A stretch of 64,000 nt of DNA from Patescibacteria group bacterium (GTDB taxonomy: Bacteria > Patescibacteriota > Kazan-3B-28): NCBI GenBank assembly GCA_041649135.1, contig JBAZNQ010000001.1, positions 361,983-425,982 on the forward strand, written 5' to 3'. The translations under genes and the position numbers were made by a program. Positions 2,347-53,046 of this stretch are shown one piece after another. Below the pieces are notes generated by a model. It ran no database searches, was not told where the DNA came from, and saw nothing but the letters and a program-made list of their open reading frames with translations. Position 1 is the first letter of the stretch. Each line of letters opens with the position of its first letter.

Positions 2347-2498
2347 AACTTTTGATTATCCCTGATCTGTTGAAATCCCCCCAATCCCCTCTCTCATCAT
2401 TCCTTATAGCCTCCATTTTGTCTCTAATCTCTAATCTCTAACCCCAAAAACCCGCTTCCAGAGCGGCTAAATCATACCACAAACCTGAAATTTGTCAA

Positions 2499-3725: not shown

Positions 3726-3838
3726 CTAACTAACCATCTCTCATCTCTCATCTCTCATCTCTCATCTCTCATCTCTCATCTCTCATCTCTCATCTCTCAT
3801 CTCTCATCTCTCATCTCTCATCTCTCATCTCTCATCTC
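3726..3838. repeat. Heptanucleotide tandem array (CTCTCAT)x~16
   Basis: Perfect 7-bp tandem repeat read directly from the sequence. It abuts the stop codon of the minus-strand ABC transporter gene. Confidence 0.95.
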
Positions 3839-5625
3839 TATTCCTCCAACATCGCCCCCTGCAAAGTGAACAATCGGCGATAATAGCCACTTTTCTTCAT
3901 CAGTTCTTCGTGAGTTCCCTGCTCGGTGATTTTTCCACCCTCTAACACAATTACCCGATTAGCTCTTTTTACCGTCGACAACCGATGAGCAATAATGATT
4001 GTCGTTTTGCCCTCGATCAATTTCCAGAGTGCTCCTTGGATCATTACCTCATTTTCTGAATCTAATGCACTAGTTGCTTCATCTAAAATCAAAATCGGAG
4101 CATCTTTCAACAACGCTCTCGCGATCGCTAATCGTTGTTTTTCTCCCCCCGATAATCTTACTCCGCGTTCACCGATCTTGGTCTTAAATTTATTTGGTAA
4201 CGACATCACAAACTTATATAAATTGGCTGCCTTGGTCGCATCAATAATGCTAGCCAAACTCGCCCGAGGACTACCGTATTTCAAGTTATATTGCAAAGTA
4301 TTATTTAACGCCGCCACTTCCTGCATCACCGTCCCGATATTCTGTCGCAATGAATTCTGTGTTACCCGACTGATGTCCTGACCATCAATTAGTACCCTGC
4401 CTTTGTCCGGATCATATAGTCGCAGCAGTAGCTTTGTTAGTGTTGATTTACCTACTCCCGATGGCCCGACGATCGCCACCACTTCGTGAGGAGTAATGGC
4501 CAAATTAAAGTTTTTGAATACCACTCGCTCACCCTTTTGCCGCTTGCTACTACGATACGTAAAATGAACTTTTTCGAACTTAATTGCCCCATCCTTAACT
4601 TTTAACGGTTTAGCATCCGTAGCATCATCTACTGTCGGTTTGATATCCCAAATTCTAAATAATCTCCCAATTGACACAAACCCTACCTGCAATTGATCGT
4701 AGATTTGGGTTAGCCAGCCTAACGGCCCAAACACTCGATCTAGATAGGACATAAATAGAATCAAATCACCAACCGACAGTTTCCTTTGCAACACCAAATA
4801 GCCACCATAGCCATACACCCATAGATGCGCCGACGTTGTCACCATATCTCTCACAATCCCAATCCCCCGAACTACCCGCTCCTGTCGTTTCCGAATTTCC
4901 AAACCACGGTCATATACCGAGCCCATCCTTTTAGCCTCATAATCCTGTCGACTAAATTCTTTTATCAACTGATAGTGGAACAAATTCTCCATAAAAATCT
5001 TTCCGCTCCGCTCCATCGTATTCCGATATCTTTTCTCCCAAAAACGTTTTATCTTAGCTCGCCAAATCGACAGTCCAATATAAATCGGTGCAGCGATCAT
5101 TAACCCCAACGACATTTTAAAATCGAACTTCATCAGCACAACCAACGCAACCACAAACGTAAATATGATTGGCAATATTTCAACTATCAAGTTGCGAGTA
5201 ATTCCAAACATTTCGTTTACCCCAGCACTAATCCGCTCCCGTAGTGCCCCCGGCGATGTTTTATCAAAAAAAGACACCGATAATGTTTGAAGCTTCTCAA
5301 ATGATTTTAGAGAAAAAAAATAAAAAGACTGTGAGCCAGCTATTGTCTGCATATAAGACTCTAGCGCGCTCATTAACTCATTCACAAACCACACCACCGC
5401 GAACATTCCCACTAACCACATCAACACCGCCACCGGTTCAGTCGGCTGAATTATCCGGTCAAACACCGCACTCAATTTCTGGGTAGTTAAGAAATTAACT
5501 ACCTCTCGATAAATCCACGGAGCCACCAACGACAACCCAGCCCCCGCCAATGCTAGCGCCGTGATTAACAACAAAGCCGGATACATCGGCTTCATTTCTA
5601 TTAATAATCGTTTAAGTCCCTTCAC
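3838..5625 (-). CDS. ABC exporter, fused permease and ATPase (MsbA/ABCB-like)
   Basis: N-terminal TM domain; Walker A GPSGVGKST; ABC signature LSGGEKQRLAIARA; Walker B ILILDEAT. Confidence 0.85.
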   Translation of the reverse strand: MKGLKRLLIEMKPMYPALLLITALALAGAGLSLVAPWIYREVVNFLTTQKLSAVFDRIIQPTEPVAVLMWLVGMFAVVWFVNELMSALESYMQTIAGSQSFYFFSLKSFEKLQTLSVSFFDKTSPGALRERISAGVNEMFGITRNLIVEILPIIFTFVVALVVLMKFDFKMSLGLMIAAPIYIGLSIWRAKIKRFWEKRYRNTMERSGKIFMENLFHYQLIKEFSRQDYEAKRMGSVYDRGLEIRKRQERVVRGIGIVRDMVTTSAHLWVYGYGGYLVLQRKLSVGDLILFMSYLDRVFGPLGWLTQIYDQLQVGFVSIGRLFRIWDIKPTVDDATDAKPLKVKDGAIKFEKVHFTYRSSKRQKGERVVFKNFNLAITPHEVVAIVGPSGVGKSTLTKLLLRLYDPDKGRVLIDGQDISRVTQNSLRQNIGTVMQEVAALNNTLQYNLKYGSPRASLASIIDATKAANLYKFVMSLPNKFKTKIGERGVRLSGGEKQRLAIARALLKDAPILILDEATSALDSENEVMIQGALWKLIEGKTTIIIAHRLSTVKRANRVIVLEGGKITEQGTHEELMKKSGYYRRLFTLQGAMLEE

Positions 5626-5836: not shown

Positions 5837-6412
5837 TTACCGACACTCCACCAACCAAACTTGGTTAGGCCAAACCGAGATCATGCCCTCCAATGATAAC
5901 GCTGCATCAGTATCGTATGCGATCAGGTAGCGACCCGAAGGCCAATCCGAGGCCACAAACCACGCAACTTCCTTGTCGTCCACCTTGATATCACCCGAGT
6001 ATCGCAATGCTTCGGTGGACCAGCCGGATTCTGTATTATCAATCGCTCTCACTCGTAGTGCCCGTTTGCCAAACACTTGTGCCAGTTGACCGGCTGGGTA
6101 AAAATAAAACTCAAACGAGCCGGTGGCACTATAGGCTTCGGCACCATACTTCCGCCATGTAGCATCCGTGGTGGCTGATATATCGAGGTACATCTCGCTC
6201 TTGCCTTCGAACACCTTAGATATAGCCACTACTGGCAACGGACTTCCCCAGTCTTGATCGATGTACGCCCCGATCTTGTCAGGACCGCTAAGAGATGAGA
6301 CTGGCTGATTATCTGCTGTCACCACCAAGGCCGGCTTGTGGATATTCATCCACCAATAAGCTCCAAGGAGGATGATCAGCAACACCACGAAAACCAAGAA
6401 TTTCTTGGCCAC
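5837..6412 (-). CDS. Hypothetical membrane-anchored protein
   Basis: N-terminal hydrophobic helix; no recognisable motif. Confidence 0.4.
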   Translation of the reverse strand: MAKKFLVFVVLLIILLGAYWWMNIHKPALVVTADNQPVSSLSGPDKIGAYIDQDWGSPLPVVAISKVFEGKSEMYLDISATTDATWRKYGAEAYSATGSFEFYFYPAGQLAQVFGKRALRVRAIDNTESGWSTEALRYSGDIKVDDKEVAWFVASDWPSGRYLIAYDTDAALSLEGMISVWPNQVWLVECR

Positions 6413-6546
6413 CGCACACCTCCATCAAGACTACAAGATGCCTCCACCTTATCAGAACTCTTCCATCAGTCAACCCCATCCTCATTCATGTCGTTGCGGA
6501 AGTTCCGAGACACCGAGGGACGACCAAACAGTTTCCTAAACCGTGA

Positions 6547-6645
6547 TTCACCATTCACCATTCACCATTCACTATTCACTATTCACTATTCACTATTCAC
6601 TATTCACTATTCACTATTCACTATTCACTATTCACTATTCACTAT
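6547..6645. repeat. Heptanucleotide tandem array (CACCATT)3(CACTATT)~11
   Basis: Read directly from the sequence. It abuts and overlaps the stop codon of minus-strand tgt. Confidence 0.95.
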
Positions 6646-7872: not shown

Positions 7873-7901
7873 GATATTACTTAATCACTAGATACTGAAT
7901 A

Positions 7902-8423
7902 CTATTGAAGTTCAACCTTTGCCCCGGCTTCTTCAAGTTTCTTCTTGATCTCTTCAGCATCAGCCTTCTTCACGTTTTCTTTCACCATCTTTGGAGCTGC
8001 TTCCACCAAATCTTTGGCTTCCTTCAATCCAAGTTCTGTGACTTCGCGAACAGCCTTAATCACGTTAATCTTGTTAGCACCGGCACTAACTAAGTTAACA
8101 TTATATTCCGTCTTTTCTTCAGCTGCAGGACCAGCGGCGGCACCACCAGCGGCGGCAACGGCAACTGGAGCAGCAGAAACACCAAACTTGTCTTCCAACA
8201 CTTTGACCAGTTCAGCCAATTCGAGCACGGTCATTTCGCTGACCATATCCAAAACTTTCTTGGCGTTACCGGACAACTTGCTCGCATCGACCTTCTTTTC
8301 CTCTTTGGCTGGTTCAGCCTTCACTTCTTCCACTTTTGGCTCCTCTACAGCAGCCGCCTCAACGGTCGCTTCCGCAACTTCTGGGGTCTGCTCTTCTGGA
8401 GTCGTATTTTGTTCGTCTGCCAT
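7902..8423 (-). CDS. rplL: Ribosomal protein L7/L12 with ~45-aa acidic N-terminal extension
   Basis: C-terminal domain ...[24 protein letters not shown]... matches L7/L12. Strong RBS (aaggag) before the ATG at 8423 supports the extended start. Confidence 0.85.
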
Positions 8424-9003: not shown

Positions 9004-9351
9004 AAAAATTGATTTATAGTTTTATGGATTAATGGATAAATAGTCTATTGGTCTATAAGTCTACGTGTCTATTCGTCTACTCACAAAAACTCGTCTCCTT
9101 GTAGAGACGAATAATCTTCCCTCTAGATGCTAAATACTAGCCCCTAGATACTGATTACTCCTTTTCGGCAGGTCTTACCTCCTTGCCACTAGATGCTAGA
9201 TACTAGCCCCTAGCCGCTAATTCGTGCCCGCTGTCTCTAAAGGACAGGGGTATCTTACAAAACTCTATTCGAACCGTCAAGCCCTTTCGTATAATAGCCA
9301 CAGGGGGCAAATTTAATCGTCCCTTAACATTCCTGTACTGGGAGGCACGCA

Positions 9352-12870: not shown

Positions 12871-12946
12871 ACAGAAACAAAAAATAATTTAAACCGACTG
12901 TAAATCAACCCTCACCCTTCCGTCATTGGGCATTGGATATTGGACA

Positions 12947-13765
12947 TTAAATTGACGATAAGTCAATTTTGATCCCCGGGCCCATCGTCGTCGCCATACT
13001 CATCCGTTTGATGTAAGCACCCTTCGATGTCGCTGGCTTAGCCGCTTGGATCGCACTAACGATCGCTTTGAAGTTTGTCATCAAGTCCTCCGACTTAAAT
13101 GAAACTTTGCCGAATCCAAGATGAATGATCGCATCTTTATCGAGCCGGAATTCTACTTTTCCTTTTTTGAATTCTTCAACCGCTTTGGCTGGATCAGCCG
13201 TTACAGTTCCCGACTTGGGATTTGGCATCAAGCCTTTTGTCCCTAGTGTCTGACCAAGTTTACCAACTTGTGCCATTACCGACGGAGTAGCAATTACTAA
13301 GTCAAAATCCAACCAACCGTCTTGAATTTTTTTGATCATTTCTTCCAATCCAACATGATCAGCTCCCGCCGCTTTGGCTTTTTTGGCTTCCGCTTCCTCG
13401 GCCAAAACTAAAATCTTGCGGGTTTTGCCGGTACCAGCTGGCATTGAAACTGTTCCGCGAATATTTTGCTCCGGCTTTTTTGGGTCCAACCCCATTTGGA
13501 TATGTAATTCCACCGTCGCATCAAATTTACTTGGGGACGTTTCCTGTGCCAGTTGGATCGCTTCAGTCGCCGAATACATTTTGTTCTTATCTACCTTCGG
13601 CAAAACAGCCAGATATTTTTTACCTCGCCCAAACTTCCGCACTTTTGACTTTGGTTGCTTGGCAACCACTCCGACCTTAGCGTCGGAGCTACTCTGCTTT
13701 TTCACCGCCTTCTTAGCGGTCACCTTCTTTTTCTGCTGTTCAGCAGAACCCTTTGGGTCTTCCAT
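12947..13765 (-). CDS. rplA: Ribosomal protein L1 with Lys-rich N-terminal extension
   Basis: L1 core (GTVSMPAGTGK...GLMPNPKSGTVT...). Start MEDPKG at 13765 has an RBS aggag. There is a ~45-aa K-rich extension. Confidence 0.85.
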   Translation of the reverse strand: MEDPKGSAEQQKKKVTAKKAVKKQSSSDAKVGVVAKQPKSKVRKFGRGKKYLAVLPKVDKNKMYSATEAIQLAQETSPSKFDATVELHIQMGLDPKKPEQNIRGTVSMPAGTGKTRKILVLAEEAEAKKAKAAGADHVGLEEMIKKIQDGWLDFDLVIATPSVMAQVGKLGQTLGTKGLMPNPKSGTVTADPAKAVEEFKKGKVEFRLDKDAIIHLGFGKVSFKSEDLMTNFKAIVSAIQAAKPATSKGAYIKRMSMATTMGPGIKIDLSSI

Positions 13766-15718: not shown

Positions 15719-15788
15719 AAACTCGTGTCTAGTGTCTAGAGATCAGCATCTAAAATTCCCATAGATACTAAATACTAGCCACTAGATA

Positions 15789-16367
15789 CTACTTAAGTTT
15801 CTCTTCCGCTTGTTTTAAAAGTTCTTGTGTCTGCTCATTCCTCGGATCCAAGATGATGGCCTTCTCATAAGCATCTGCCGCTTTCCGATATTTCTTAGTC
15901 ATAAAATAGGCCAACCCAAGATTTACTAACCGTGACGGAATTTTATCATTAATAGCGATCGACTTCTCATACGCATCGATTGCTCCATCGTAACTTTCCA
16001 TCTCGTAATACAGCAACCCAAGATTGTTGTAAAAAGTATCATTTTCCGGCTCCAGCTTCAACGCCTGCTTCAACGCCGACCTCGCATCCTTAAAGTTCTT
16101 TGATTGTAGATAGATCAGTCCCAACTTGTTGTACAATCCAGCATCATCCGGCTCCTTCCCCAAGATTTTCAAATACAGATTTTCAGCCTTCTTCAGCTCA
16201 CCTTTTTCAAAATGCTCATCCGCCAGCTCCCGTGGGGTTTTTTCTTTATCCTTCTCATCTACCACTCCATCAGCGTTTTTGTCAGCTGGAGTCAGATCCA
16301 CCGGCAACTTGCGAAGAACCATGATCAGAGCCAAGACAGTCGCCAAAAACACAATAACTTCCCACAT
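15789..16367 (-). CDS. TPR-repeat protein with N-terminal TM helix
   Basis: Several TPR-like 34-aa repeats (YNKLGLIYLQ..., YNNLGLLYYE..., LVNLGLAYFM...). Confidence 0.7.
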   Translation of the reverse strand: MWEVIVFLATVLALIMVLRKLPVDLTPADKNADGVVDEKDKEKTPRELADEHFEKGELKKAENLYLKILGKEPDDAGLYNKLGLIYLQSKNFKDARSALKQALKLEPENDTFYNNLGLLYYEMESYDGAIDAYEKSIAINDKIPSRLVNLGLAYFMTKKYRKAADAYEKAIILDPRNEQTQELLKQAEEKLK

Positions 16368-17230: not shown

Positions 17231-18136
17231 CTACAGCGCCAGCAACAATGTATCGATCGCTCCTTTCAAATTCACATTATCCCGAATCTGCTTTACTGCT
17301 ATCTGCATCCGTTCTAGTCCTTTGACCGCTTTTTCATTCGGCAACATTTCCCTCCAAACCATCATCCCAGCCCGAATAAACTCCACCGCTTCATCGCGAT
17401 CTTTCAATTTTTCCGACCAACCAAATTTTGTTTCAACATCAGCCGTCTGCACTTTTTGCCAGAATGTCATCATTTCCTTATAGTCCACCCACCAAATCGA
17501 CATTTCTTCCCAATCTTTTACTTGCCCAGCACTCCCACCCGAAGCCGCAATTTGTTCGTCAGTAGCCTGTGGCACAATTTTTTTAATTTCTGCATCTGTC
17601 AGCGGACCGAATCTCACTACTTGTGCTCGTGACACGATCGTTGGCAACAACGCCTCTTCATTCGGCACGATCAAAATGATCACCGTGTCATCTCTCGGCT
17701 CTTCCAAAGTTTTCAACAACGCATTTTGAGCCGCATCATTTAAATTTTGGGCATCATCAATAATTGCCACTTTATATTTCGATACCATTGGCGACATCAT
17801 CAACCGTCGTGTCAGTTCCCGCATTGCCCCAATCCATTCCCTGGTCTTTTCTTTACTGACCTCATCTAAAATCTGCGAATACCAAAACGTATCCGGATGA
17901 TTTTGTGTTGCTGGTGGCTGGTGGCTAGTGGCTAGTGGCTGACTATGCAAATATTGTGCCAACGCTTTCGCCGCCGTCCTTCTTCCCACACCCTTCGGCC
18001 CAGCAAATATCAACGCTTGCGGCAAATTTCCCGACTCCAAAGTCGCCAACAACCATTTCTTGGCTGTTGCCTGTCCCTCCAAATCAGAAAACACCTCCTT
18101 CACTTCCATAATCCGATTATACCAGCCCATACCCAC
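17231..18136 (-). CDS. holB: DNA polymerase III delta-prime subunit
   Basis: AAA+-like GPKGVGRRTAA; LLKTLEEP; IVSRAQVVRF sensor motif. Contains an intragenic (GGCTAGT)-type heptamer repeat at ~17905-17940. The true start may be the ATG at 18109. Confidence 0.6.
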   Translation of the reverse strand: MGMGWYNRIMEVKEVFSDLEGQATAKKWLLATLESGNLPQALIFAGPKGVGRRTAAKALAQYLHSQPLATSHQPPATQNHPDTFWYSQILDEVSKEKTREWIGAMRELTRRLMMSPMVSKYKVAIIDDAQNLNDAAQNALLKTLEEPRDDTVIILIVPNEEALLPTIVSRAQVVRFGPLTDAEIKKIVPQATDEQIAASGGSAGQVKDWEEMSIWWVDYKEMMTFWQKVQTADVETKFGWSEKLKDRDEAVEFIRAGMMVWREMLPNEKAVKGLERMQIAVKQIRDNVNLKGAIDTLLLAL

Positions 18137-18423: not shown

Positions 18424-18903
18424 CTAAACCGCTTTCGGCTTCTTGTACTTGTAATCCCCAAACGCCAACAAAGGCATGAAGATAAATGACAAAAACACCA
18501 ACCCAACAGTAAACGCCACGTCTTGCCCAAACACTCTCGCCAATTCTCTGCACATCCAAATAGCAATGACGATATTCACAAACGGCACGAACAGCAAAAG
18601 CAACCACCACCACGGCTTACCGATCATCTCCAACGCAACATAAATATTGTAAAAGGGAATAATTGCCGCCCAGCCGGGTTTATTGGCTTTGGTAAAAATT
18701 ACCCAAGTCGACACCAACATCAACGCACCAATCGCCCAATTCCACCACATGTGTGTCGCCGCTTCAAATCCACCCAACCAACCGCTCATCCAACCACCGC
18801 CCCAACCCAATGCCGTTACTGCACCAGCAGTCGTATCCAAATCATCCAACTTCACATCTTTTAGTTGATTTAACAAATCACCGATCGTCTCCGCATTTTC
18901 CAT
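18424..18903 (-). CDS. Hypothetical 4-TM membrane protein, flanked on both sides by family A repeat copies
   Basis: Hydrophobic segments; Trp-rich. Confidence 0.5.
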   Translation of the reverse strand: MENAETIGDLLNQLKDVKLDDLDTTAGAVTALGWGGGWMSGWLGGFEAATHMWWNWAIGALMLVSTWVIFTKANKPGWAAIIPFYNIYVALEMIGKPWWWLLLLFVPFVNIVIAIWMCRELARVFGQDVAFTVGLVFLSFIFMPLLAFGDYKYKKPKAV

Positions 18904-22794: not shown

Positions 22795-24126
22795 ATGGAA
22801 CCTAATAGCTTATTTAATCCAGCCACCACCATGCCTGCGCTAGCGGGGAGAGAGATTAACATTGCTCCATTGGGCGCCACCAACATGGCTCGAGAATTCG
22901 ATGGATCATGGGATTTTCGTGGCGCCAAGACCAAATCTTATACGCATGGGCTCCATAGTTACCCCGCTATGTTTATTCCGCAGGTAGCACGACGGCTGGT
23001 TCAATCATACAGTCGACCGGGTGACAAAATTTGCGACATTTTTTGCGGCTCAGGTACTACCCTCGTTGAAAGTATTGTTTTGGGACGCGATGCAATCGGA
23101 ATAGACCTAAACCCGCTCGCCGTTTTTTTAGCAAAAGTAAAAACCACTCCAATTAATCCCTCCCTTCTCACAAAAGCATACTTTCATATCGTCGAAAAGT
23201 ATCATCAGCCCGACATTGTAGGCATTACAATACCAGAATTTCCTAATCTAAATTTCTGGTTTAACGAAACTACCATCGCACAACTGGCCAAGCTCAAATA
23301 TGTCATTCGCAAAACCACATCTGGAGATACAAGAGATTTCTTCATGGCAACTTTCAGTGAGGTAGTTCGTTTAGTATCAAACACCAAGAATGGTGAATTT
23401 AAGCTAGTGCGAATGTCGAGTGAAAAACTACGAGACTGGAATCCAAATGTCCTAAATATGTTCCGCAAGAAAGCCGAGAACAATATTGCGGGTATGTCAG
23501 ATTTTTTTCACGAAGTACCCAGTGATCACCGTGCCACAATCATCATCGGAGACTCTTCTCAAGACAATAAAATACCAAAAAACTCCATAGACTTGATACT
23601 CACCTCTCCGCCATATGGTGATAGCCGGACAACAGTGGCATACGGACAATTCTCAAGATTATCGTCACAGTGGATAGATTTATTCGAAGACCCCTCCGAG
23701 GCATCAAAAGTAGACAATCAACTGCTCGGTGGCAACAAGATTGGTGATTTATCACACAATCTACAATCCGTACACTTAATAGCCGCTTTAGAGACTATCG
23801 CACAACAAGACATCTCTCGAGCCAAAGAAGTATTGAGCTTTTTTATTGGGTTAAACCGATGCGTTGAACAAGCGCACTCCATCTTAAAACCCAACCGCCA
23901 CATGTGTGTTGTAATCGGAAATCGTCTAGTAAAACAAGTCCGCATACCCACAGACATCATTATTGCTGAACTTGGAAACGAAATCGGTTTTACATGCGAG
24001 ACCATTATGGCTCGCAATATCCCCGGAAAAAAGATGCCAATACGGAACTCTCCAACCAATATAGCGGGACAACTGGCAGATACCATGAATCAAGAAAGTA
24101 TCGTCGTTCTTCGTAAACTCAAATAA
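22795..24126 (+). CDS. Type II DNA methyltransferase (N4-cytosine or N6-adenine, SPPY; alpha-like motif order I...IV)
   Basis: Motif I DIFCGSGTT at ~aa 80; motif IV TSPPYGD at ~aa 270. Confidence 0.75.
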   Translation: MEPNSLFNPATTMPALAGREINIAPLGATNMAREFDGSWDFRGAKTKSYTHGLHSYPAMFIPQVARRLVQSYSRPGDKICDIFCGSGTTLVESIVLGRDAIGIDLNPLAVFLAKVKTTPINPSLLTKAYFHIVEKYHQPDIVGITIPEFPNLNFWFNETTIAQLAKLKYVIRKTTSGDTRDFFMATFSEVVRLVSNTKNGEFKLVRMSSEKLRDWNPNVLNMFRKKAENNIAGMSDFFHEVPSDHRATIIIGDSSQDNKIPKNSIDLILTSPPYGDSRTTVAYGQFSRLSSQWIDLFEDPSEASKVDNQLLGGNKIGDLSHNLQSVHLIAALETIAQQDISRAKEVLSFFIGLNRCVEQAHSILKPNRHMCVVIGNRLVKQVRIPTDIIIAELGNEIGFTCETIMARNIPGKKMPIRNSPTNIAGQLADTMNQESIVVLRKLK

Positions 24127-24805
24127 GTTTACGAAATGTGCTAAAAACTTCTTTGAAGTCCTTTAAAGGCAATCTAAACGCTGAGCCATGGTCATGAGGC
24201 CTGCCGTCAGGATACCTCCCCATCCTAATGTCGTATTTCATCTTTGCAATAAATCGGTCAAAGTTACCACCCTTACACAGATATGCCTCTTTGTAGGCAA
24301 ACTGTTCTTTGCCGTTATTGTCTTTCTTGGCTTCTGCCAACACTAAAATAACACCTCGACCTACCTTTTTGATAAAGCTATCTTCCAGTTTTGTCCTATC
24401 ATAAGAAACCACCAGTGACTTATGTTTAAACACAATTAGTTCACTATCTTTCTTGTTATCGACCAACCGATATCCTTGCTTATTGGCAACCCGCGTCACT
24501 GTTTGATGCAACACCTTTTTCCCATCTGTAGGACGAGGATACCCAAACTTATCCAATAATTTAGAATTCAAACCAGTATCCGGCTTACGAGTAAACAAAG
24601 TCACCATCGAACCGGTCTCGCGCCTTTGAGCCTTGAGCTCCATCACGCCAAAATCTGGCAGAGCAATATTGTTTTCCGTTATTCCAAGATAATCCTCAAT
24701 AGTCTTGCCGATCCCCGTATTGTGCAATCGGTTTGACTTTATCCAACCCTTGTTGGAAAGATCTTTTAGTTTTTTCTTTATCTGAACAAAAGTAAACTTT
24801 TTCAT
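24119..24805 (-). CDS. Type II restriction endonuclease, MvaI/BcnI-like (PD-(D/E)XK)
   Basis: ITENNIALPDFGVMELK (D-x-E-x-K) and C-terminal GRPHDHG...RLP match my memory of the BcnI/MvaI family. Convergent with the methylase, overlapping by 8 nt. Confidence 0.6.
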   Translation of the reverse strand: MKKFTFVQIKKKLKDLSNKGWIKSNRLHNTGIGKTIEDYLGITENNIALPDFGVMELKAQRRETGSMVTLFTRKPDTGLNSKLLDKFGYPRPTDGKKVLHQTVTRVANKQGYRLVDNKKDSELIVFKHKSLVVSYDRTKLEDSFIKKVGRGVILVLAEAKKDNNGKEQFAYKEAYLCKGGNFDRFIAKMKYDIRMGRYPDGRPHDHGSAFRLPLKDFKEVFSTFRKLI

Positions 24806-25026
24806 AAATTCTCCATAAAAAAATTAATCGACTTTTTATACATACGCGAAAGTTTGTTGAGTTCGATAATATCCAGCCGTCTCTCTCCCGCCTCCACCTT
24901 CGACACAAACGACTGTGGCTTCCCTAATTTTTGAGCCACCTCTTTTTGCGTTAAACCGGCAGACAATCTTGCCTGCTTTAGTTTCTCCACTAACTTCTGA
25001 TATTCCCCCGAGTAAATTGATTTCAT
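24802..25026 (-). CDS. HTH XRE-family controller (C) protein of the R-M system
   Basis: LTQKEVAQKLGKPQSFVSKVE helix-turn-helix. Its 3' end overlaps the start of the endonuclease gene by 4 nt. Confidence 0.7.
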   Translation of the reverse strand: MKSIYSGEYQKLVEKLKQARLSAGLTQKEVAQKLGKPQSFVSKVEAGERRLDIIELNKLSRMYKKSINFFMENL

Positions 25027-36551: not shown

Positions 36552-38801
36552 ATGACAGCTTGGGGTCTAGATGACAAAATAAAAGCGCTTACAAAGCGCC
36601 ACCGCAACTATTCACTTATCACTTTTAACTTTTCACTTCCCCTTATGCTCTCCCCTGCCAGCAAACTCGACTCCCTCCCCCACATCGGGCCCGCTCTCGC
36701 TTCCCAATTAGCTGTCTTGGGTATTTTGACTGTTGAGGACTTGATCTATTATTTCCCTCGGGCATGGGAAGATTTAAGCCAACTAGCTGAAGTCGCCCAT
36801 CTCATCCCAGACGGTCAGCGTCGGACTGTTAAAGCCACCCTAATTAATCTCAAAACTTTCCGCTCCCCCTACAAACGAATGACCCTCACCCAAGGAATCG
36901 CCCGTGATGCTAGCGGAGAACTGCCGGTAATTTGGTTCAACCAGCCATTTTTACGCAACACTCTCAAAACCGACACCGAATATTTTCTTACCGGCAAAGT
37001 TGAAAACCGTTCCGGCAAATTATCTTTGGTTGCTCCCGATTTTGAACGCGTCAGCGATGTCCCGATCCATAGTCTGCGAATTGTACCGGTCTACCCAGAA
37101 ACTGGTCGGCTAACCACTAAAGTCTTTCGCCGACTATGCGCCAATCTCGCTCCCATCATTCATCAAATCGAAGATTACTTACCAGATACTATTCTGGCGC
37201 AATATCATTTGTTACCACTTTCCGAAGCTCTGCTCCATCTTCATTTTCCCGCTTCATTAGAGTATCTTCAGCGGGCCAAAGACCGACTAGCTTTTGACGA
37301 GCTCCTGCTTACCCAACTCGCCGTCCAGGGCGTAAAACAATTTTTGAAATCATCTGACGCTCTGCCCATTCCCCAAGACATCGATTTCATCAAATCAATT
37401 TTAGCCAAACTCCCTTACCAATTAACCATTGGTCAGAAAAAAGCCCTCTGGGAAATTGTTCAGGATTTGAGCGACACCAAGCCGACCAATCGCCTACTCG
37501 AAGGCGATGTCGGTTCTGGCAAAACTATCGTGATCGCGATTGCGATGATGTTAGCCGCGAAATATCATTTCCAATCCGCTCTCATGGCTCCGACTGAAGT
37601 CTTGGCTTATCAACATTATCATTCCCTTGAACCACTACTGACCCAATTTGGGATTACCTGCCGTCTGTTCACCCAAAGCTTCAAACTAGGACCAGAATCA
37701 GCCGATGTTACCATCGGAACTCACACTTTAATTCAAGACGCAACCAAATTTGATAATCTCAATCTCGTCATCATTGATGAGCAACATCGCTTTGGCGTCA
37801 AACAACGAGAAAAACTAAAACACAAATCCGCCGACGATCAAGATAGTCAGGTGGGCAAGGGACCTGCCCGCCACACTGCGTCTAATGAAAATGCGGCTGG
37901 GCCTGCCCGCCCCACTGCGTCGTTAGGAAATGAGGCTGGGTCTACCCGCCACATTGCATCTAAAGACGCTGTGGGCTGGGTTCCGCATTTCCTCTCTCTG
38001 ACCGCCACTCCCATCCCCCGTTCTCTCGCCCTAACCTTGTTTGGTGATTTAGATTTATCAGTCATTACCATGCGTCCAGTTGGTCGCCTACCTATCAAAA
38101 CCTCCGTCATTACCAACCAGCAACGCGGACAGGTTTATAAATTGATTCAGCAGGAGATTGATGCCAATCGGCAAGCTTTTGTTATCACTCCTCTGATTGC
38201 TGATTCAGATCGACTGGCTGTGAAATCCGCCGAAAAAGAATTTAAGAATATTCAATCGCTCTTCCCGCACGCTCGCGTCGGGCTCTTACACGGTCGGCTA
38301 ACTACTGACAAGAAACAAGCTGTGATGGATGATTTTAAAAATCAACGTTTAGATATTTTAGTTGCGACTACCGTCATCGAGGTTGGTGTCGATATTCCCA
38401 ATGCCACCGTCATGTTAATTGAAGGAGCGGAAAGATTTGGTCTGGCCCAACTTCATCAGCTCCGTGGTCGAGTTGGTCGTGGACAAGCGCAATCATATTG
38501 TTTCGTTACCCCAACCGACACCAATGATGAAATTACAAAACGTCTCCAAATTTTCGCCAACAACGTCGATGGTTTTAAGTTAGCCGAGATGGATCTACAA
38601 ATGCGCGGTCCGGGGAGTCTTTTTGGCAAAGTTCAATCCGGCTTTGTTCGCTATCGTCTGGCCGACTGGACCGATGCCAAAGCGATCAAAATCGCCCAAG
38701 ATGCCGCCTTAGAAATTTTGAGCCAAAGTCCTGACCTCTCCAAATATCCAGAGCTAAAGAAAAAAGTTAATATTGAAAGTGTCATTGCTCATTCCGAGTA
38801 A
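36552..38801 (+). CDS. recG: ATP-dependent DNA helicase RecG
   Basis: GSGKT, DEQH, TATPIPR and the RecG wedge region. Contains an in-frame 3 x 33-nt tandem repeat at ~37855-37965. The start may be a downstream Met. Confidence 0.8.
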   Translation: MTAWGLDDKIKALTKRHRNYSLITFNFSLPLMLSPASKLDSLPHIGPALASQLAVLGILTVEDLIYYFPRAWEDLSQLAEVAHLIPDGQRRTVKATLINLKTFRSPYKRMTLTQGIARDASGELPVIWFNQPFLRNTLKTDTEYFLTGKVENRSGKLSLVAPDFERVSDVPIHSLRIVPVYPETGRLTTKVFRRLCANLAPIIHQIEDYLPDTILAQYHLLPLSEALLHLHFPASLEYLQRAKDRLAFDELLLTQLAVQGVKQFLKSSDALPIPQDIDFIKSILAKLPYQLTIGQKKALWEIVQDLSDTKPTNRLLEGDVGSGKTIVIAIAMMLAAKYHFQSALMAPTEVLAYQHYHSLEPLLTQFGITCRLFTQSFKLGPESADVTIGTHTLIQDATKFDNLNLVIIDEQHRFGVKQREKLKHKSADDQDSQVGKGPARHTASNENAAGPARPTASLGNEAGSTRHIASKDAVGWVPHFLSLTATPIPRSLALTLFGDLDLSVITMRPVGRLPIKTSVITNQQRGQVYKLIQQEIDANRQAFVITPLIADSDRLAVKSAEKEFKNIQSLFPHARVGLLHGRLTTDKKQAVMDDFKNQRLDILVATTVIEVGVDIPNATVMLIEGAERFGLAQLHQLRGRVGRGQAQSYCFVTPTDTNDEITKRLQIFANNVDGFKLAEMDLQMRGPGSLFGKVQSGFVRYRLADWTDAKAIKIAQDAALEILSQSPDLSKYPELKKKVNIESVIAHSE

Positions 38802-41660: not shown

Positions 41661-41748
41661 AAATTACCCACATGAACTGTCATTCTGGTAAGCCCAGCCC
41701 CTAAGGAGTCCCGACGTATCCAGAATGACAACTGCTAAGGAAGAGTTC

Positions 41749-41795
41749 TATTGGCTATTGGCTATTGGCTATTGGCTATTGGCTAGTGGCTAAAC
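41749..41795. repeat. Heptanucleotide tandem array (TGGCTAT)x~6
   Basis: Read directly from the sequence. It abuts the htrA stop codon. Confidence 0.9.
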
Positions 41796-42935: not shown

Positions 42936-43061
42936 AAATATCCCCTACAAATTAACTTATTAAGTGTATCCCTCCCTAGATACTAGATACTAACATATCA
43001 TTCTACCAACCTGAAAAATAACTGAAACTCCCACGACCATCATGAGTGATAGAATATAGCC

Positions 43062-50932: not shown

Positions 50933-51703
50933 CTAGCTTAATTGCCCCAGCACAGAAAGCGACTTTATCCGCCGATCGGTCGTATATTCTACAAACTCCG
51001 ACATCAGTCGAGACACTTCCTCGGCTATTTCACTGCCTACCTTCACTTTCCCAATCGCATCTAACGGATACCTTTGCAGCAATCGCAATAATTTAATCCC
51101 ATCACAGGATATTTCCGGTGCAAAATCGTCTTGATTTTTCCCGTCGCAGAATACGCCACCCAACCGATAACTAAAATGTAGCTGGTTGTCTTCGCTTAGC
51201 TCCCGCCCCGACACCACACACCGATACAGCTCCGGCGCAAATCCCAATCCTGTTAAAAGCTTTATTTCAAAATAAGTCTTTAAAATATTTAATGGCAAAA
51301 TATTATCCTCAATCGCCGACAAGCCTTCTCGCAACAAACTAAATACTTCCGGCACATCCCCCGAGGGGGTTCCGTCGGAAATGGTTTCTTCGATCAACTT
51401 ATCCACTAGCTCACAAAAGTAAAACATCAGTCCCGTTTCTTGTAATGTCGGTTCACTCGCGACTCGCGACTCGCGACTTGCGACTGCCCCGACCACAATG
51501 TCCAAATTCCTTCCCTCTGCTAGTTCTAATTGATTGTCCGCAAACATATCTAACCAACCAGCCAGCTTTGCTCTAGGTCTCCGCACCCCCTTTGCCACCA
51601 CTCGCATTTTCCCCCTATCGGAAGTTAGGATCGTTAAAATCCGGTCGGCCTCACCGAAATTCACTTTCCTGATTACGATCCCCCGAGTTCTTGTTGTGGG
51701 CAT
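50933..51703 (-). CDS. recO: DNA repair protein RecO
   Basis: N-terminal OB-fold (GIVIRKVNFGEADRILTILT). Contains a (CGACTCG)x4 heptamer repeat at 51455-51490. Confidence 0.65.
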   Translation of the reverse strand: MPTTRTRGIVIRKVNFGEADRILTILTSDRGKMRVVAKGVRRPRAKLAGWLDMFADNQLELAEGRNLDIVVGAVASRESRVASEPTLQETGLMFYFCELVDKLIEETISDGTPSGDVPEVFSLLREGLSAIEDNILPLNILKTYFEIKLLTGLGFAPELYRCVVSGRELSEDNQLHFSYRLGGVFCDGKNQDDFAPEISCDGIKLLRLLQRYPLDAIGKVKVGSEIAEEVSRLMSEFVEYTTDRRIKSLSVLGQLS

Positions 51704-52373: not shown

Positions 52374-52970
52374 GTGGAAATCGAGTCAAAAATCTATACC
52401 CGAACAGGCGATTCTGGCACTACTGGCCTGTATAAAGGCCCGTCTACCCGCAATGCTACTCAAAGTGTTGTAGGCGGCGGGCAGGTTAGCAAATCCTCTC
52501 TCCGCGTTGCCACCTATGGCATGGTGGACGAGCTGAATGCCACTGTATCCGCGGCGAAAGCTTTTAGTAATCATGAAGATATCAAAAAACTGCTCGGACG
52601 AATTCAGCACAAATTAATGAACATCGCCTCGATTTTGGCGTCCGAACAAAGCAACCCCCCCAAAGAAACTTTACCGATACTTTCCGAATTAGATGTTATC
52701 GGGCTCGAACGTTGTATCGATTACTTTACTCATGAACTTCCGCCGATCAGTAATTTTATTATCGCAGGGCTTAACCAAGCCGGCGCAATGTTGGATGTCG
52801 CCAGAACTGTTTGCCGCCGTACTGAACGACAAATCGTTTTATTATCCGACACCGAATCAGTTCCTCCTGTTATCCAAAAGTTTCTCAATCGTCTGTCCGA
52901 CCTATTATTTGTCCTTGAACGCTACGAACACCACCAAAGCGGATTTGGTGATGTGATGTGGGAGAAGTAA
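52374..52970 (+). CDS. ATP:cob(I)alamin adenosyltransferase, PduO-type
   Basis: KIYTRTGDSGTT hallmark. Confidence 0.7.
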   Translation: MEIESKIYTRTGDSGTTGLYKGPSTRNATQSVVGGGQVSKSSLRVATYGMVDELNATVSAAKAFSNHEDIKKLLGRIQHKLMNIASILASEQSNPPKETLPILSELDVIGLERCIDYFTHELPPISNFIIAGLNQAGAMLDVARTVCRRTERQIVLLSDTESVPPVIQKFLNRLSDLLFVLERYEHHQSGFGDVMWEK

Positions 52971-53046
52971 TCTCTACCTCCAACCAAAAGCACAAACCAT
53001 CTTGGTGATTGATGATTGGTGATTGGATATTACGGCAAAGCCGTTC

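What the first reader, a model, noticed from the sequence alone, without database searches (positions are those of the whole stretch)
3726..3838. Heptanucleotide tandem arrays abutting stop codons of minus-strand genes (STRR-like), with heptad periodicity pervading intergenic DNA
Perfect 7-bp arrays sit immediately at the 3' end of three unrelated minus-strand genes. These are (CTCTCAT)~16 after the ABC exporter (3726-3838), (CACCATT/CACTATT)~14 overlapping the tgt stop (6547-6645), and (TGGCTAT)~6 after htrA (41749-41795). Shorter arrays occur at 2428-2450 ((TCTCTAA)3) and at 60290-60400 and 63861-63895 (TTCACTA-type). Intragenic examples are holB (~17905-17940, GGCTAGT-type) and recO (51455-51490, CGACTCG x4), where 7-nt units would shift the frame on slippage. 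Many intergenic regions also hold imperfect heptad arrays of GATTGGT/TAGATTG. These lie at 14470-14500, 17145-17225, 20890-21050, 21170-21215, 38950-38995, 48690-48800, 52990-53040, 61496-61540, 62940-62990 and 63955-64000. They often form head-to-head palindromic blocks. A third heptad-periodic motif is TAGATACTAAATACTAGCC. It lies upstream of rplJ (9121-9225), upstream of tRNA-Thr (15735-15795), just behind the rplL stop (7878-7900) and 40 nt upstream of htrA (42975-43000). Heptamer STRRs are classically described in heterocystous cyanobacteria; here they occur in what looks like a CPR genome.
Basis: seen in the sequence. Interest (0 to 1): 0.62.

Follow-up and report, generated by a model that had tools for sequence, protein, structure and literature searches.

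The report
Seven-base repeat arrays after stop codons
A small uncultured (Patescibacteria/CPR, Kazan-like) bacterium carries perfect tandem arrays of 7-base units that begin at the stop codons of unrelated genes; this is a known kind of bacterial microsatellite in a new host, and the anchoring at stop codons is unusual and may mark a regulatory signal.

Summary
The arrays are real. They are (AGAGATG)15 after an ABC exporter, (TGAATAG)11(TGAATGG)3 after tgt and (TAGCCAA)6 after htrA, read on the gene strand. Among periods 4-15, only period 7 gives perfect arrays of at least 3 copies. With mismatches allowed there are 11-14 heptad loci, against 0.2-0.6 in shuffles. Seven of 13 non-coding heptad arrays lie within 8 nt of a stop codon (0.5-1.1 expected; 0 of 5000 permutations reach 7). 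Five are in phase with the stop codon, reading TAG-N4-NAG-N4 and so on. The sense strand carries a stop triplet in each unit, and the ABC and tgt arrays are unstructured as RNA. The long arrays are absent at the same sites in relatives, so they are young. Short degenerate heptad motifs are conserved in a Kazan genome: (TAG-N4)5 at the TPR-gene stop and a 30-nt CTAG-N3 element in the rplJ leader. A period-8 class also exists, and general heptad periodicity of intergenic DNA is weak. Best reading: these are slippage-expanded members of a lineage-typical class of stop-anchored NAG-N4 motifs. They are akin to cyanobacterial STRRs and heptanucleotide LSSRs but differ in sequence. Function is unproven. 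Copy-number variation could not be tested.

The parts
3735..3839 (-). Array (AGAGATG)15, perfect. It begins with the TAG stop (3838-3840) of the ABC exporter gene 3838..5625 and is in phase with it (TAG-AGAT-GAG-AGAT...).
   Evidence: TRF; sequence; Pfam; phase; sense RNA unstructured, MFE -0.9 kcal/mol.
6546..6645 (-). Array (TGAATAG)11 followed by (TGAATGG)3. The tgt stop TAG (6642-6644) is the first TAG of the array. It lies 134 nt upstream of the next gene, 5837..6412.
   Evidence: two sub-blocks seen; sense RNA unstructured.
41748..41792 (-). Array TAGCCAC(TAGCCAA)5, 6 nt after the htrA stop (41799-41801). It is enclosed by an 8-bp inverted repeat and followed by a GTCATTCTGG hairpin element and a bidirectional terminator.
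2421..2441 (-). (TTAGAGA)3, 75 nt upstream of the start of the HD-domain gene and downstream of a TTGACA-16-TATGAT promoter-like site (2498-2471). It is probably in the 5' UTR.
15762..15791 (-). TAG-TATC-TAG-TGGC-TAG-TATT-TAG-TATC. The heptad array starts with the stop codon of the TPR gene 15789..16367 and precedes tRNA-Thr. It is conserved in position and phase in Kazan bacterium GW2011 (L005 4022-4062).
7878..7904 (-). TAG-TATT-CAG-TATC-TAG-TGAT-TAA. This short heptad motif starts with the rplL stop codon and is followed by a terminator hairpin.
9116..9222 (-). Two copies of the 'C element' (AGYATCTAGKGGCTAGTATYTAGYATCTAG, i.e. CTAG-N3 four times) in the rplJ leader. They sit upstream of a conserved hairpin plus U-run and a period-8 TAGACNNN array.
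   Evidence: conserved in L004 and L005; alignment A3.
42970..43003 (-). Half C element (TAG-TATC-TAG-TATC-TAG) about 45 nt upstream of the htrA start, just downstream of a TGgTAGAAT -10-like box.
12924..12948 (-). (CCAATNN)3.6, starting 3 nt after the rplA stop.
60286..60394 (-). Inverted pair of degenerate TGAATAG-family arrays. NAG-TKAA four times begins in phase with the stop of gene 60399..60791. Its complement (CTNTTAA three times) lies about 50 nt further on, at the 5' end of the glycosyltransferase gene. The two pair into a stem of about 20 bp.
   Evidence: fold -37.5 kcal/mol, z = -3.7.
63848..63890 (-). GAATAGT-TAAAAGT-GAATGGT-GAATAGT-GAACAGT. This TGAATAG-family array contains the dnaK stop codon (63878-63880).
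   Evidence: dnaK coordinates from L018.
36605..36642 (+). CTATTCA-CTTATCA-CTTTTAA-CTTTTCA, the complement of the TGAATAG family. It ends 3 nt before the recG start (36645; a 718-aa product in the public gene call). It is conserved upstream of recG in L017 but not in L013.
53002..53026 (+). (TGATTGG)3.6, 32 nt after the stop of plus-strand gene 52374..52970. The stop-bearing strand is the plus (sense) strand.
17910..17941 (-). Intragenic array (CAGCCAC/TAGCCAC) of 4.6 copies in holB, the same unit family as the htrA array. It encodes a 9-aa insertion (LATSHQPPA) relative to the Kazan ortholog.
   Evidence: (family D8).
51455..51485 (-). Intragenic array (CGCGAGT) of 4.4 copies in the RecO inter-domain linker (aa 72-82). 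There is no length change relative to orthologs.
62945..62994 (.). Example of the period-9 class (AGATTGGTN), which is not heptad. Other sites: 14486-14525, 17143-17230, 20890-21030, 21170-21205, 38951-38990, 48690-48800, 61502-61543 and 63957-63997. The last lies inside the dnaK coding tail.
   Evidence: (D4, D6, I5-I8).
9041..9079 (.). Example of the period-8 class (GTCTAYNN / TAGACNNN). Other sites: 34159-34199, 60796-60828 and 60869-60913. It abuts the start codons of rplJ, the PBP1A gene and gene 60399..60791, none of which has a Shine-Dalgarno sequence.

Best explanation
The three long arrays are heptanucleotide microsatellites of the STRR / long-SSR type. They arose recently, most likely by replication slippage. 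They were seeded from a class of short heptad-periodic motifs typical of intergenic DNA in this Kazan-like Patescibacteria clade. On the sense strand those motifs read (N)AG plus 4 nt, usually TAG-N4, and they tend to start at the stop codon itself. The long arrays are therefore transcribed as the first part of the 3' UTR or intercistronic spacer. They put a stop triplet in all three frames, since 7 = 1 mod 3. The ABC and tgt arrays form no RNA structure of their own. Shown: the arrays exist, they are period-specific, they are anchored at stops, they are sense-strand biased, they are young, and the short versions are conserved in relatives. Inferred: slippage as the generating process; that copy number itself is largely neutral and hypervariable; and that the short ancestral motifs act as a single-strand-specific (probably RNA-level) signal. 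That signal could be a register of sites for an oligomeric RNA-binding protein or a multi-frame stop cassette.
For: Period specificity: perfect arrays of at least 3 copies occur only at period 7, and there are 11 and 14 loci against 0.2 and 0.55 in shuffles. Youth: the arrays are 97-100% perfect. The tgt array has two homogeneous sub-blocks that differ by one base. No array follows the tgt or htrA stop in relatives with 66-82% identical proteins. Seeds: the TGAATAG unit recurs in degenerate form at 36605, 60286, 60362 and 63848 and in L007 and L017. TAGCCAC recurs in holB, lepA and the C element. Stop anchoring: 7 of 13 non-coding arrays lie within 8 nt of a stop, against 0.49 or 1.06 expected, and 0 of 5000 permutations reach 7. 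AG at both +7 and +14 from the stop occurs in 4 of 59 genes, against 0-1 for other periods. A further case just outside the window is hrcA. Strand: (TAG-N4)3 gives 25 matches against 0.19 expected, 23 of them on the sense strand. Conservation of the short form: the TPR-gene stop plus (TAG-N4)5 has the same C-terminus and the same phase in Kazan GW2011 while the spacers vary. The C element has 11 copies in 3 genomes. Not an artefact of one assembly: a second assembly breaks inside both long arrays. The arrays (105 and 100 nt) are shorter than the k = 141 in the contig name, so single k-mers can span them (inference). Background: heptanucleotides are the commonest long-SSR class in many bacteria, and polymerase slippage has been proposed as the cause (Mrazek 2007, as summarised in PMC4679880 and PMC4692102).
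Against: No copy-number polymorphism could be shown, because the databases hold no strain closer than 73% protein identity. The sample is about 64 kb plus about 15 kb of one genome, so genome-wide generality is not shown. In relatives only 2 of about 10 heptad arrays sit at stops. Stop anchoring could partly reflect that the few bases after a stop are the only insertion-tolerant part of compact intergenic regions. Sense orientation cannot be cleanly separated from replication-strand orientation: GC skew is about -0.25 across the whole window and most genes are on one strand. No binding protein was identified; there is no HutP, TRAP or cold-shock domain among 40 window proteins scanned. The ENA and Logan assemblies may derive from the same sample.
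Confidence: 0.55

Rival explanations
1. The arrays are pure mutational by-products. Slippage-prone heptamers expand anywhere selection allows. No heptad motif here has a function, and the position at stops only reflects where insertions are tolerated.
For: The long arrays are lineage-specific and perfect. Units differ between loci. Heptad arrays also occur inside holB, recO and lepA in variable loops. Heptanucleotide over-representation is widespread and has been attributed to the polymerase.
Against: The TPR-gene stop array and the C element keep TAG at 7-nt spacing across genomes with only 66% identical TGT, while the spacers vary. The same unit families recur at several loci. There is a strong sense-strand bias. 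Even placement within the array's own intergenic region gives only 1.06 expected near stops, against 7 observed.
Confidence: 0.2
2. The arrays, long ones included, are functional RNA platforms. An oligomeric single-stranded-RNA-binding protein reads one NAG triplet per 7 nt, by the logic of HutP or TRAP (or beads of Csp or S1 domains). Bound right after the stop codon, it controls read-through into the downstream gene, mRNA 3'-end stability or ribosome release.
For: HutP binds three XAG motifs per face, with in-line cleavage at U498, U505 and U512, i.e. a 7-nt register, and recognises A and G (PMC2425495). Here AG is the invariant part of the degenerate arrays. The ABC and tgt arrays are unstructured as sense RNA. 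The C element sits just upstream of a conserved terminator hairpin in the rplJ leader in three genomes. There is a sense-strand bias.
Against: No HutP, TRAP or CSD domain was found in the proteins scanned, although the rest of the genome was not searched. Fifteen copies far exceed what a hexamer needs. The long arrays are not conserved. The C element occurs in both orientations in relatives, where the CTAG palindrome makes the strand ambiguous.
Confidence: 0.13
3. The arrays are contingency (phase-variation) loci. Copy-number changes tune expression of the downstream gene (tgt to the 191-aa gene; ABC exporter to the metallo-beta-lactamase-fold gene) or switch holB and recO on and off by frameshift.
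For: Perfect arrays of 6-15 copies are highly mutable in other bacteria. Heptanucleotide promoter and ORF repeats drive phase variation of H. influenzae HMW adhesins and E. coli NeuO (titles and abstracts). The arrays in holB and recO are not multiples of 3 per unit.
Against: All three long arrays lie after stop codons, not in promoters or ORFs. holB and recO are housekeeping genes with only about 4.5 imperfect copies. No length variants are available.
Confidence: 0.07
4. The arrays act at the DNA level. They could be oriented binding sites for a DNA-binding protein (a roadblock terminator, a nucleoid protein or a replication- or recombination-related oriented motif). Alternatively they could be C-rich, G-poor rut-like tracts that stop antisense transcription entering gene 3' ends.
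For: The strand bias coincides with an extreme GC skew. Three heptads equal two helical turns. The plus-strand transcripts of the ABC and tgt arrays would be G-free, C/U-rich and essentially unstructured. Period-9 and period-8 arrays also sit at gene ends and upstream of -10-like boxes.
Against: The htrA unit is not G-poor on the plus strand and folds strongly there. Only YTAG, not the CTAG palindrome, is conserved at the TPR-gene stop. The single array beside a plus-strand gene follows the gene strand.
Confidence: 0.04
5. The arrays are assembly artefacts, either collapsed or invented repeats.
For: Short-read metagenome assemblies handle tandem repeats poorly. The Logan contig ends in both arrays.
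Against: The same array edges and flanks appear in two assemblies made with different software. The arrays are shorter than the k-mer in the contig name. Degenerate arrays of the same families, which cannot be artefacts, occur at 10 or more loci and in relatives.
Confidence: 0.01

Closest known systems
STRR (short tandemly repeated repetitive) heptanucleotides of heterocystous cyanobacteria (Mazel et al. 1990; cited in PMC4692102)
   Same: Both have a 7-nt unit, head-to-tail arrays, a non-coding location between genes, a few unit families dispersed over several loci, and no known function.
   Different: Neither the STRR1-3 units (CCCCART, TTKGTCA, CAACAGT; recalled from memory) nor GGGGAYT occurs in tandem here. 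The host is a roughly 0.5-0.6 Mb-class CPR genome rather than a large cyanobacterial genome. These arrays are anchored at and in phase with stop codons, and each unit carries a stop triplet.
Heptanucleotide long simple-sequence repeats (LSSR) of prokaryotes (Mrazek, Guo & Shah 2007, as summarised in PMC4679880 and PMC4692102)
   Same: In both, heptanucleotides are the over-represented period among long SSRs, mostly in intergenic DNA. Polymerase slippage with a footprint of about 7 nt has been proposed as the cause. Arrays vary in length even between close relatives.
   Different: That class was described mainly in large-genome free-living bacteria (Burkholderia, Xanthomonas, cyanobacteria, actinobacteria). 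No preference for stop codons was reported in the texts read.
TAACTGA direct repeats of marine Beggiatoaceae, some cyanobacteria and Bacteroidetes (MacGregor 2015, PMC4679880)
   Same: Both are heptamers containing stop triplets, of 2-6 (up to 43) copies, intergenic, in sense orientation and abutting a coding-region boundary. Candidate readers proposed there were S1, Csp and CsrA. The relative L004 has (TAACTCA)4 upstream of tgt.
   Different: Those repeats lie immediately upstream of start codons, whereas these lie immediately after stop codons. There is one unit genome-wide there and several unit families here. TAACTGA itself is not repeated here.
GGGAATC / GGGGAYT G-quadruplex-forming heptamer repeats of Xanthomonas and Nostoc (Rehm et al. 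2015, PMC4692102)
   Same: Both are intergenic heptamer arrays that sit between the same genes in related genomes yet vary greatly in length.
   Different: The units here have no G-runs and no G4 potential, and the ABC and tgt arrays are unstructured in sense RNA.
Triplet-repeat RNA sites of HutP (NAG-N4, three per face) and TRAP ((G/U)AG with 2-3 nt spacers, eleven times) (PMC2425495)
   Same: Both have an invariant AG at a fixed register (7 nt for HutP), variable spacers and a single-stranded state. They are located next to a terminator hairpin, as the C element is in the rplJ leader.
   Different: No HutP or TRAP homologue was found in the window. The arrays here are far longer than 3 + 3 sites, and most sit after stop codons rather than in leaders. 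This is a resemblance in logic only.
Contingency-locus SSRs of host-adapted pathogens (for example the 7-bp repeats of the H. influenzae hmw promoters)
   Same: Both are perfect short-unit arrays with expected high slippage rates.
   Different: Those sit in promoters or ORFs of surface-protein genes and have shown phase variation. These follow the stop codons of housekeeping genes, and no variation has been shown.

Membership tests
Cyanobacterial STRR | Tandem repeats with a heptanucleotide unit | tested here: met
   TRF finds period 7 with 15.0, 14.3 and 6.4 copies. Period 7 is the only period with perfect arrays.
Cyanobacterial STRR | Unit sequence STRR1 CCCCA(A/G)T, STRR2 TT(G/T)GTCA or STRR3 CAACAGT (recalled from Mazel 1990) | tested here: not met
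   There are no tandem dimers of any of these on either strand.
Cyanobacterial STRR | The same unit dispersed at many intergenic loci of one genome | tested here: inconclusive
   The TGAATAG family is at 5 loci and TAGCCAC at 3-4 loci in about 79 kb. AGAGATG-like units are at 2 loci. The whole genome is not available.
Cyanobacterial STRR | The host is a (heterocystous) cyanobacterium | tested here: not met
   The closest genomes are a candidate division Kazan bacterium and Patescibacteria MAGs. The 16S gene has a LAGLIDADG intron, as is common in CPR.
Heptanucleotide LSSR (Mrazek 2007) | An SSR of 1-11 nt unit that is longer than expected by chance for the genome | tested here: met
   Shuffle controls give 0.2 against 11 observed loci. 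The expectation for perfect 3-copy arrays is about 2e-4 (own calculation).
Heptanucleotide LSSR (Mrazek 2007) | Length polymorphism between strains, as a signature of slippage | not testable with these tools
Indirect evidence only: the arrays are absent at orthologous sites in relatives.
TAACTGA repeat network (MacGregor 2015) | TAACTGA unit in direct repeats | tested here: not met
   There are 0 tandem dimers.
TAACTGA repeat network (MacGregor 2015) | Arrays located a few nt upstream of start codons, in sense orientation | tested here: not met
   One of 13 arrays lies within 8 nt of a start, which is no more than chance. Seven of 13 lie within 8 nt of a stop.
HutP-type antiterminator site | At least 3 NAG triplets separated by 4-nt spacers on single-stranded RNA | tested here: met
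   (TAG-N4)3 gives 25 matches against 0.19 expected. AG periodicity is shown, and the ABC and tgt arrays are unstructured.
HutP-type antiterminator site | A HutP (PF09021) protein is encoded in the genome | tested here: inconclusive
   No such Pfam hit appears among 40 window proteins or in the precomputed tables for neighbouring genes. More than 85% of the genome was not searched.
HutP-type antiterminator site | Two NAG clusters flank a terminator stem in a leader | tested here: inconclusive
   The C element lies just upstream of a conserved hairpin plus U-run in the rplJ leader of three genomes. No second cluster 3' of the stem was seen.
Phase-variable contingency locus | The repeat lies in a promoter or ORF, so that unit changes switch expression | tested here: not met
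   The long arrays lie after stop codons. Only the short imperfect arrays in holB and recO are in ORFs.

The most novel reading that the evidence does not exclude
Stop-anchored heptad arrays (TAG/NAG-N4)n may be a genuine cis-regulatory code of this CPR lineage. Together with the period-8 (TAGACNNN) and period-9 (CCAATCTNA) arrays, they would be read on the transcript. The arrays would mark gene ends and control read-through, 3'-end stability or coupling to the next gene, in a genome that often lacks canonical terminators and Shine-Dalgarno sequences at these genes. The 15-copy arrays would be runaway expansions of that code.
Probability: 0.2. Interest if true: 0.75.

Novelty: new variant of a known kind. 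Interest (0 to 1): 0.5.

Why it matters
Heptanucleotide repeats have been known in cyanobacteria since 1990 and are statistically over-represented in many bacteria, but neither their origin nor any function has been settled. This case puts them in an ultra-small CPR genome, where little intergenic DNA is expected to be junk. It also shows a positional rule not reported in the papers read here: the arrays start at, and in phase with, stop codons on the sense strand. And it links young, perfect, long arrays to short, degenerate arrays that are conserved between genomes. That gives a concrete way to separate two ideas, a polymerase-footprint slippage bias and a periodic protein-binding signal. 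It also gives ready-made VNTR markers for tracking strains of an uncultured lineage. If the short arrays prove functional, they would be one of the first cis-regulatory signals described for Patescibacteria.

Tried and rejected
1. Translated C-terminal extensions or read-through peptides are rejected. Every sense-strand unit carries TGA, TAG or TAA, so all three frames close within three units.

2. RNA hairpins or terminators formed by the arrays are rejected for the ABC and tgt arrays, with MFE -0.9 and -4.1 kcal/mol and z about 0. Only the htrA flanks and the 60286/60362 inverted pair form stems.

3. A 'bumper' artefact, in which ORFs merely run on until the first stop in an array, is rejected for tgt and the TPR gene, whose C-termini match orthologs. 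It does apply to dut in L007, and probably to dnaK and hrcA, whose ORFs read into the first unit.

4. Strain-level copy-number comparison failed. Exact-protein look-ups give only the same population, and the nearest HtrA homologue is 73% identical.

5. Scans of GTDB genomes and JGI metagenomes with TGT returned only 4 and 5 loci, none with long arrays.

6. Rfam finds no known RNA family at any array.

7. The period-9 arrays were considered as DnaA-box clusters. Only some units resemble TTATCCACA, and there are too many loci, so this was not pursued.

8. A TAG-stop preference is not significant: TAG ends 26 of 59 genes here.

9. The look-up of gene 62995..63720 failed, probably because of a different start-codon call.

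10. The start of the glycosyltransferase gene is uncertain. It is either the TTG at 60349 (public call, 573 aa) or the ATG near 60280. So whether array 60290-60315 is 5' UTR or coding remains open.
Full report
OBSERVATION. Tandem Repeats Finder on the whole window reports three long period-7 arrays.
- (CATCTCT)15.0 at 3735-3839, 100% matches.
- (ATTCACT)14.3 at 6546-6645, 98% matches. This is three ATTCACC units followed by eleven ATTCACT units.
- (CTATTGG)6.4 at 41748-41792, 97% matches.

Shorter period-7 arrays lie at 2421, 9188, 12924, 15725, 15762, 17910, 36607, 42976, 51455, 53002, 60292, 60370 and 63857.

Read on the gene strand, the arrays are (AGAGATG)15, (TGAATAG)11(TGAATGG)3 and TAGCCAC(TAGCCAA)5. 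The stop codons are TAG at 3838-3840, 6642-6644 and 41799-41801. The stop is the first triplet of the array for the exporter and for tgt. It lies 6 nt upstream of the array for htrA.

IS IT MORE THAN CHANCE? Among periods 4-15, perfect arrays of at least 3 copies exist only for period 7. There are six runs at five loci, where about 2e-4 would be expected for a random sequence of this length.
- Allowing 2 mismatches in 3 copies gives 11 period-7 loci, against 0.2 in composition-matched shuffles. Periods 8-12 give 0-1.
- Allowing about 28% mismatch over 4 copies gives 14 loci for period 7 (0.55 expected), 5 for period 8 (0.2) and 4 for period 9 (0).

So period 7 dominates but is not alone. A GTCTAYNN class has period 8. 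After the three long arrays are masked, lag-7 autocorrelation of intergenic DNA is barely raised: 0.270, against 0.263-0.268 at neighbouring lags. What does remain is a sharp peak at 7 for TAG-TAG and CTAG-CTAG spacing. The pattern TAG-N4-TAG-N4-TAG occurs 25 times against 0.19 expected, and 23 of the 25 are on the minus strand.

ARE THE ARRAYS REAL DNA? The window is 100% identical to two contigs of ENA assembly ERZ27247363. The HtrA protein is also on record from an NCBI 'Patescibacteria group bacterium' MAG with a 521-kb contig. A Logan assembly of run SRR8542065 yields a 2766-nt contig that starts inside the tgt array and ends 31 nt into the exporter array. That is the behaviour expected of a k = 31 assembler meeting a real repeat. 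The arrays (105 and 100 nt) are shorter than the k = 141 in the ENA contig names, so single k-mers can span them; this last point is inference. Degenerate arrays, which cannot be assembly artefacts, occur at ten or more further loci.

WHO IS THE HOST? The closest TGT-encoding loci among GTDB species genomes come from three MAGs.
- One labelled uncultured Saccharibacteria (74% identity).
- A Patescibacteria group MAG (70%).
- The complete genome of candidate division Kazan bacterium GW2011_GWA1_50_15 (66%).

Gene order is shared with these and with further relatives. The 16S gene carries an insertion of about 790 nt, encoding a LAGLIDADG endonuclease, near position 1391.

POSITION AND ORIENTATION. 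I printed the sense-strand flanks of all 59 ORFs of at least 100 codons.
- Five genes have (N)AG at 7-nt steps in phase with their stop codon. These are the exporter, tgt, rplL (TAG-TATT-CAG-TATC-TAG-TGAT-TAA), the TPR gene 15789..16367 (TAG-TATC-TAG-TGGC-TAG-TATT-TAG-TATC) and gene 60399..60791 (TAG-GGGG-CGG-TGAA-TAG-TTAA-GAG-TTAA-TAG).
- The strict test, AG at both +7 and +14 from the stop, is met by 4 of the 59 genes, against 0-1 for every other period from 4 to 12.
- The dnaK stop, located with locus L018, lies inside array 63853-63887.
- Just outside the window, the hrcA stop lies inside (CAATAAT)4.
- (CCAATNN)3 starts 3 nt after the rplA stop.

In a permutation test, 7 of 13 non-coding heptad arrays lie within 8 nt of a stop codon. 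The expectation is 0.49 if arrays are placed anywhere in intergenic DNA, and 1.06 if each is placed within its own intergenic region. None of 5000 permutations reaches 7. Start codons show no excess.

In every such case the strand that carries the stop triplet is the sense strand of the gene that ends there. Because 7 = 1 mod 3, three units place a stop in all three frames, so the arrays cannot be translated. The one array beside a plus-strand gene (53002-53026, TGA-N4 three times) has its stop-bearing strand on plus. That fits a gene-strand rule rather than a replication-strand rule, but it is a single data point. GC skew is about -0.25 across the whole window.

UNIT FAMILIES. The units are not arbitrary.
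- TGAATAG-like heptads (N-A-G-T-K-A-A) recur, in degenerate form, after the stop of gene 60399..60791, across the dnaK stop, and as the complement just upstream of recG and at the 5' end of the glycosyltransferase gene.
- TAGCCAC/TAGCCAA occurs after htrA, inside holB, inside lepA and within the CTAG motif.
- TTAGAGA three times (2421-2441) differs by one base from the exporter unit TGAGAGA.

As sense RNA, the exporter and tgt arrays are unstructured, with MFE -0.9 and -4.1 kcal/mol and z near 0. The inverted pair at 60286/60362 can form a stem of about 20 bp that bridges the intercistronic spacer.

COMPARISON WITH RELATIVES. No array follows the tgt stop in L004, L007, L008 or L009 (66-82% identical TGT) or the htrA stop in L013 and L017 (73% and 66%). 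The long arrays are therefore young and specific to this lineage. Heptad arrays as a class are nevertheless a trait of the clade.
- L004 has 4 in 8.5 kb, L005 has 3 in 21 kb, L007 has 1 and L017 has 2.
- L013 (73% HtrA identity) has none in 20.7 kb.
- Two distant genomes (31% TGT identity) have none.

Some short arrays are conserved at orthologous sites.
- In the Kazan genome the TPR gene ends with the same residues (…AEEKLK). Its stop is again the first TAG of TAG-TGTT-TAG-TAGT-CAG-TATT-TAG-TATC-TAG, with different spacers.
- A 30-nt 'C element' (AGYATCTAGKGGCTAGTATYTAGYATCTAG, i.e. CTAG-N3 four times) lies in the rplJ leader of the window, L004 and L005. In each it is followed by the same hairpin plus U-run.
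- Eleven copies of the C element from three genomes align with TAG nearly invariant.
- The array just upstream of recG is shared with L017 but not with L013.
- In L007 the dut ORF runs eight codons into a (NAGTGAN)5 array.

Inside genes, the holB array corresponds to a 9-residue insertion relative to the Kazan ortholog. The recO array sits in the inter-domain linker without any change in length.

INTERPRETATION. The simplest account that covers all of this has two layers.

Layer one is a lineage-typical set of short, degenerate, single-strand-asymmetric heptad motifs (NAG-N4, often YTAG-N3). They sit in UTRs, preferentially beginning at the stop codon, and some are conserved across deep divergence. 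They are therefore probably functional.

Layer two is occasional runaway expansion of such motifs into perfect arrays of 6-15 copies. This behaviour is known for heptanucleotide long SSRs, for which a polymerase footprint of about 7 nt has been proposed to favour slippage (Mrazek et al. 2007, as summarised in PMC4679880, and PMC4692102).

What the short motifs do is not shown. The closest mechanistic analogy is the triplet-repeat RNA sites of HutP and TRAP. HutP reads three XAG motifs per face at a 7-nt register and contacts the A and G (PMC2425495). Here AG is the invariant part, the spacers vary, the ABC and tgt arrays are single-stranded, and the C element sits next to a terminator hairpin. 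No HutP, TRAP or cold-shock domain was found among 40 window proteins, but most of the genome was not available. A multi-frame stop cassette, a DNA-level oriented site and a purely neutral origin remain as rivals. Contingency-locus behaviour is unlikely for arrays that lie after stop codons.

COMPARISON WITH KNOWN FAMILIES. In kind, these are heptanucleotide LSSRs, or STRR-like repeats. They are not members of the STRR sequence families, of the TAACTGA network or of the GGGAATC/GGGGAYT G4 repeats, because none of those units occurs in tandem here. They differ from the TAACTGA repeats in sitting after stops rather than before starts. I found no paper in the searchable library that describes tandem heptamers in Patescibacteria.

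LIMITS.
- The sample is 64 kb plus about 15 kb of one genome.
- Gene calls are longest-ORF heuristics, checked against public calls where these were available.
- Copy-number polymorphism, transcription and protein binding could not be tested.
- The ENA and Logan assemblies may come from the same sample.

VERDICT. The core observation is right and statistically strong, but the claim of pervasive heptad periodicity is overstated and partly a mis-measured period. The phenomenon is a new variant of a known kind. Interest is moderate (0.5). It would rise if the stop-anchored NAG-N4 motif proves to be a read signal.

Noticed in passing
window 54275-56529 (-): The 16S rRNA gene is interrupted near E. 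coli position 1391 by an insertion of about 790 nt. The sequence reads ...CTTGTAC | insert | CACCGCCCGTCACACC.... The insert encodes a LAGLIDADG_1 endonuclease (54421..54972) and gives a weak group-II D1-D4 Rfam hit (54891-54974). Rfam reports only 55148-56529 as the 16S match, although the true 3' end, with the CCTCCTTTC anti-SD, is near 54275.
   Followed up: partly
window 14486-14525, 17143-17230, 20890-21030, 21170-21205, 38951-38990, 48690-48800, 61502-61543, 62945-62994; L005 3300-3400: Arrays of AGATTGGTN / CCAATCTNA with period 9 and 3-5 copies, often as head-to-head palindromic blocks. They start 0-17 nt after stop codons or lie upstream of -10-like boxes. The block after holB is conserved in the Kazan genome. 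One copy, 63957-63997, lies inside the dnaK C-terminal tail, where it encodes QSN/QSQ/QSD repeats.
   Followed up: partly
window 9041-9079, 34159-34199, 60796-60828, 60869-60913; L004 2905-2985: Period-8 arrays (TAGACNNN / GTCYANNN) run right up to the start codons of rplJ, the PBP1A gene and gene 60399..60791, none of which has a Shine-Dalgarno sequence. The rplJ case is conserved in L004. Many other genes have a TATAAT-like box 7-12 nt before the start codon, which suggests leaderless mRNAs.
   Followed up: partly
window 3647-3725, 19948-20060, 35976-36000, 36530-36557, 38833-38945, 40197-40283, 41679-41733, 43800-43855, 61626-61695, 62797-62925: More than 15 copies of small hairpin elements begin GTCATTCCCGCG...CGCGGGAATGAC, GTCATTGCGAGG...CTCGCAATGAC or GTCATTCTGG...CCAGAATGAC. 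They look REP- or MITE-like. Three of them directly follow heptad arrays (ABC exporter, htrA, hrcA). The element after the ABC array is flanked on both sides by AGATG(AG), as if it had inserted into the array.
   Followed up: no
window 7794-7833 and 50247-50286; L004 640-670; L007 11015-11050: Near-perfect 40-nt palindromes (TGTATTACCTATTTGTACGATCGTACAAATAGGTAATACA) occur in intergenic DNA. They are present at several loci and in relatives near tgt.
   Followed up: no
window 1-64000: There is an extreme and uniform GC skew, about -0.25 on the plus strand (range -0.04 to -0.30), with no switch across 64 kb. TGA is rare as a stop codon (7 of 59), while TAG and TAA account for 26 each.
   Followed up: no
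window 37863-37963 (+): A 39-nt tandem repeat of 2.6 copies lies inside recG. It encodes a low-complexity insertion (GPARHTASNENAAGPARPTASLGNEAGSTRHIASKDA) within the helicase.
   Followed up: no
window 18145-18393 vs 18979-19225; 12767-12845 vs 54056-54134: Direct repeats of about 250 nt (81-87% identical) flank the DUF5684 gene 18424..18903. A 79-nt segment downstream of rplA recurs at 94% identity downstream of the 16S gene.
   Followed up: no
window 22795-25026: A restriction-modification island has lower GC (0.40). It holds an N6/N4 DNA methylase (22795..24126), an MvaI/BcnI-family endonuclease (24119..24805) and an HTH_3 controller (24802..25026).
   Followed up: no
L018 2767-2860 and 3492-3525 (same genome, just beyond window end); L001 20558-20683: lepA contains in-frame heptad-derived insertions, (CACTAGC)4.9 and an AAATCCG / ACAAATC / GGATTTAGAAATTCGAATTTAGA tract. 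A similar GGATTTAGAGTTTCGAATTTAGAATTTGAG tract lies directly upstream of secD.
   Followed up: no
window 53047-53123 (-) and 53438-53513 (+): tRNA-Ile(GAT) and tRNA-Ala(TGC) lie near the 16S gene but are divergently oriented. No 23S gene lies within the 64-kb window, so the rRNA operon is unlinked.
   Followed up: no
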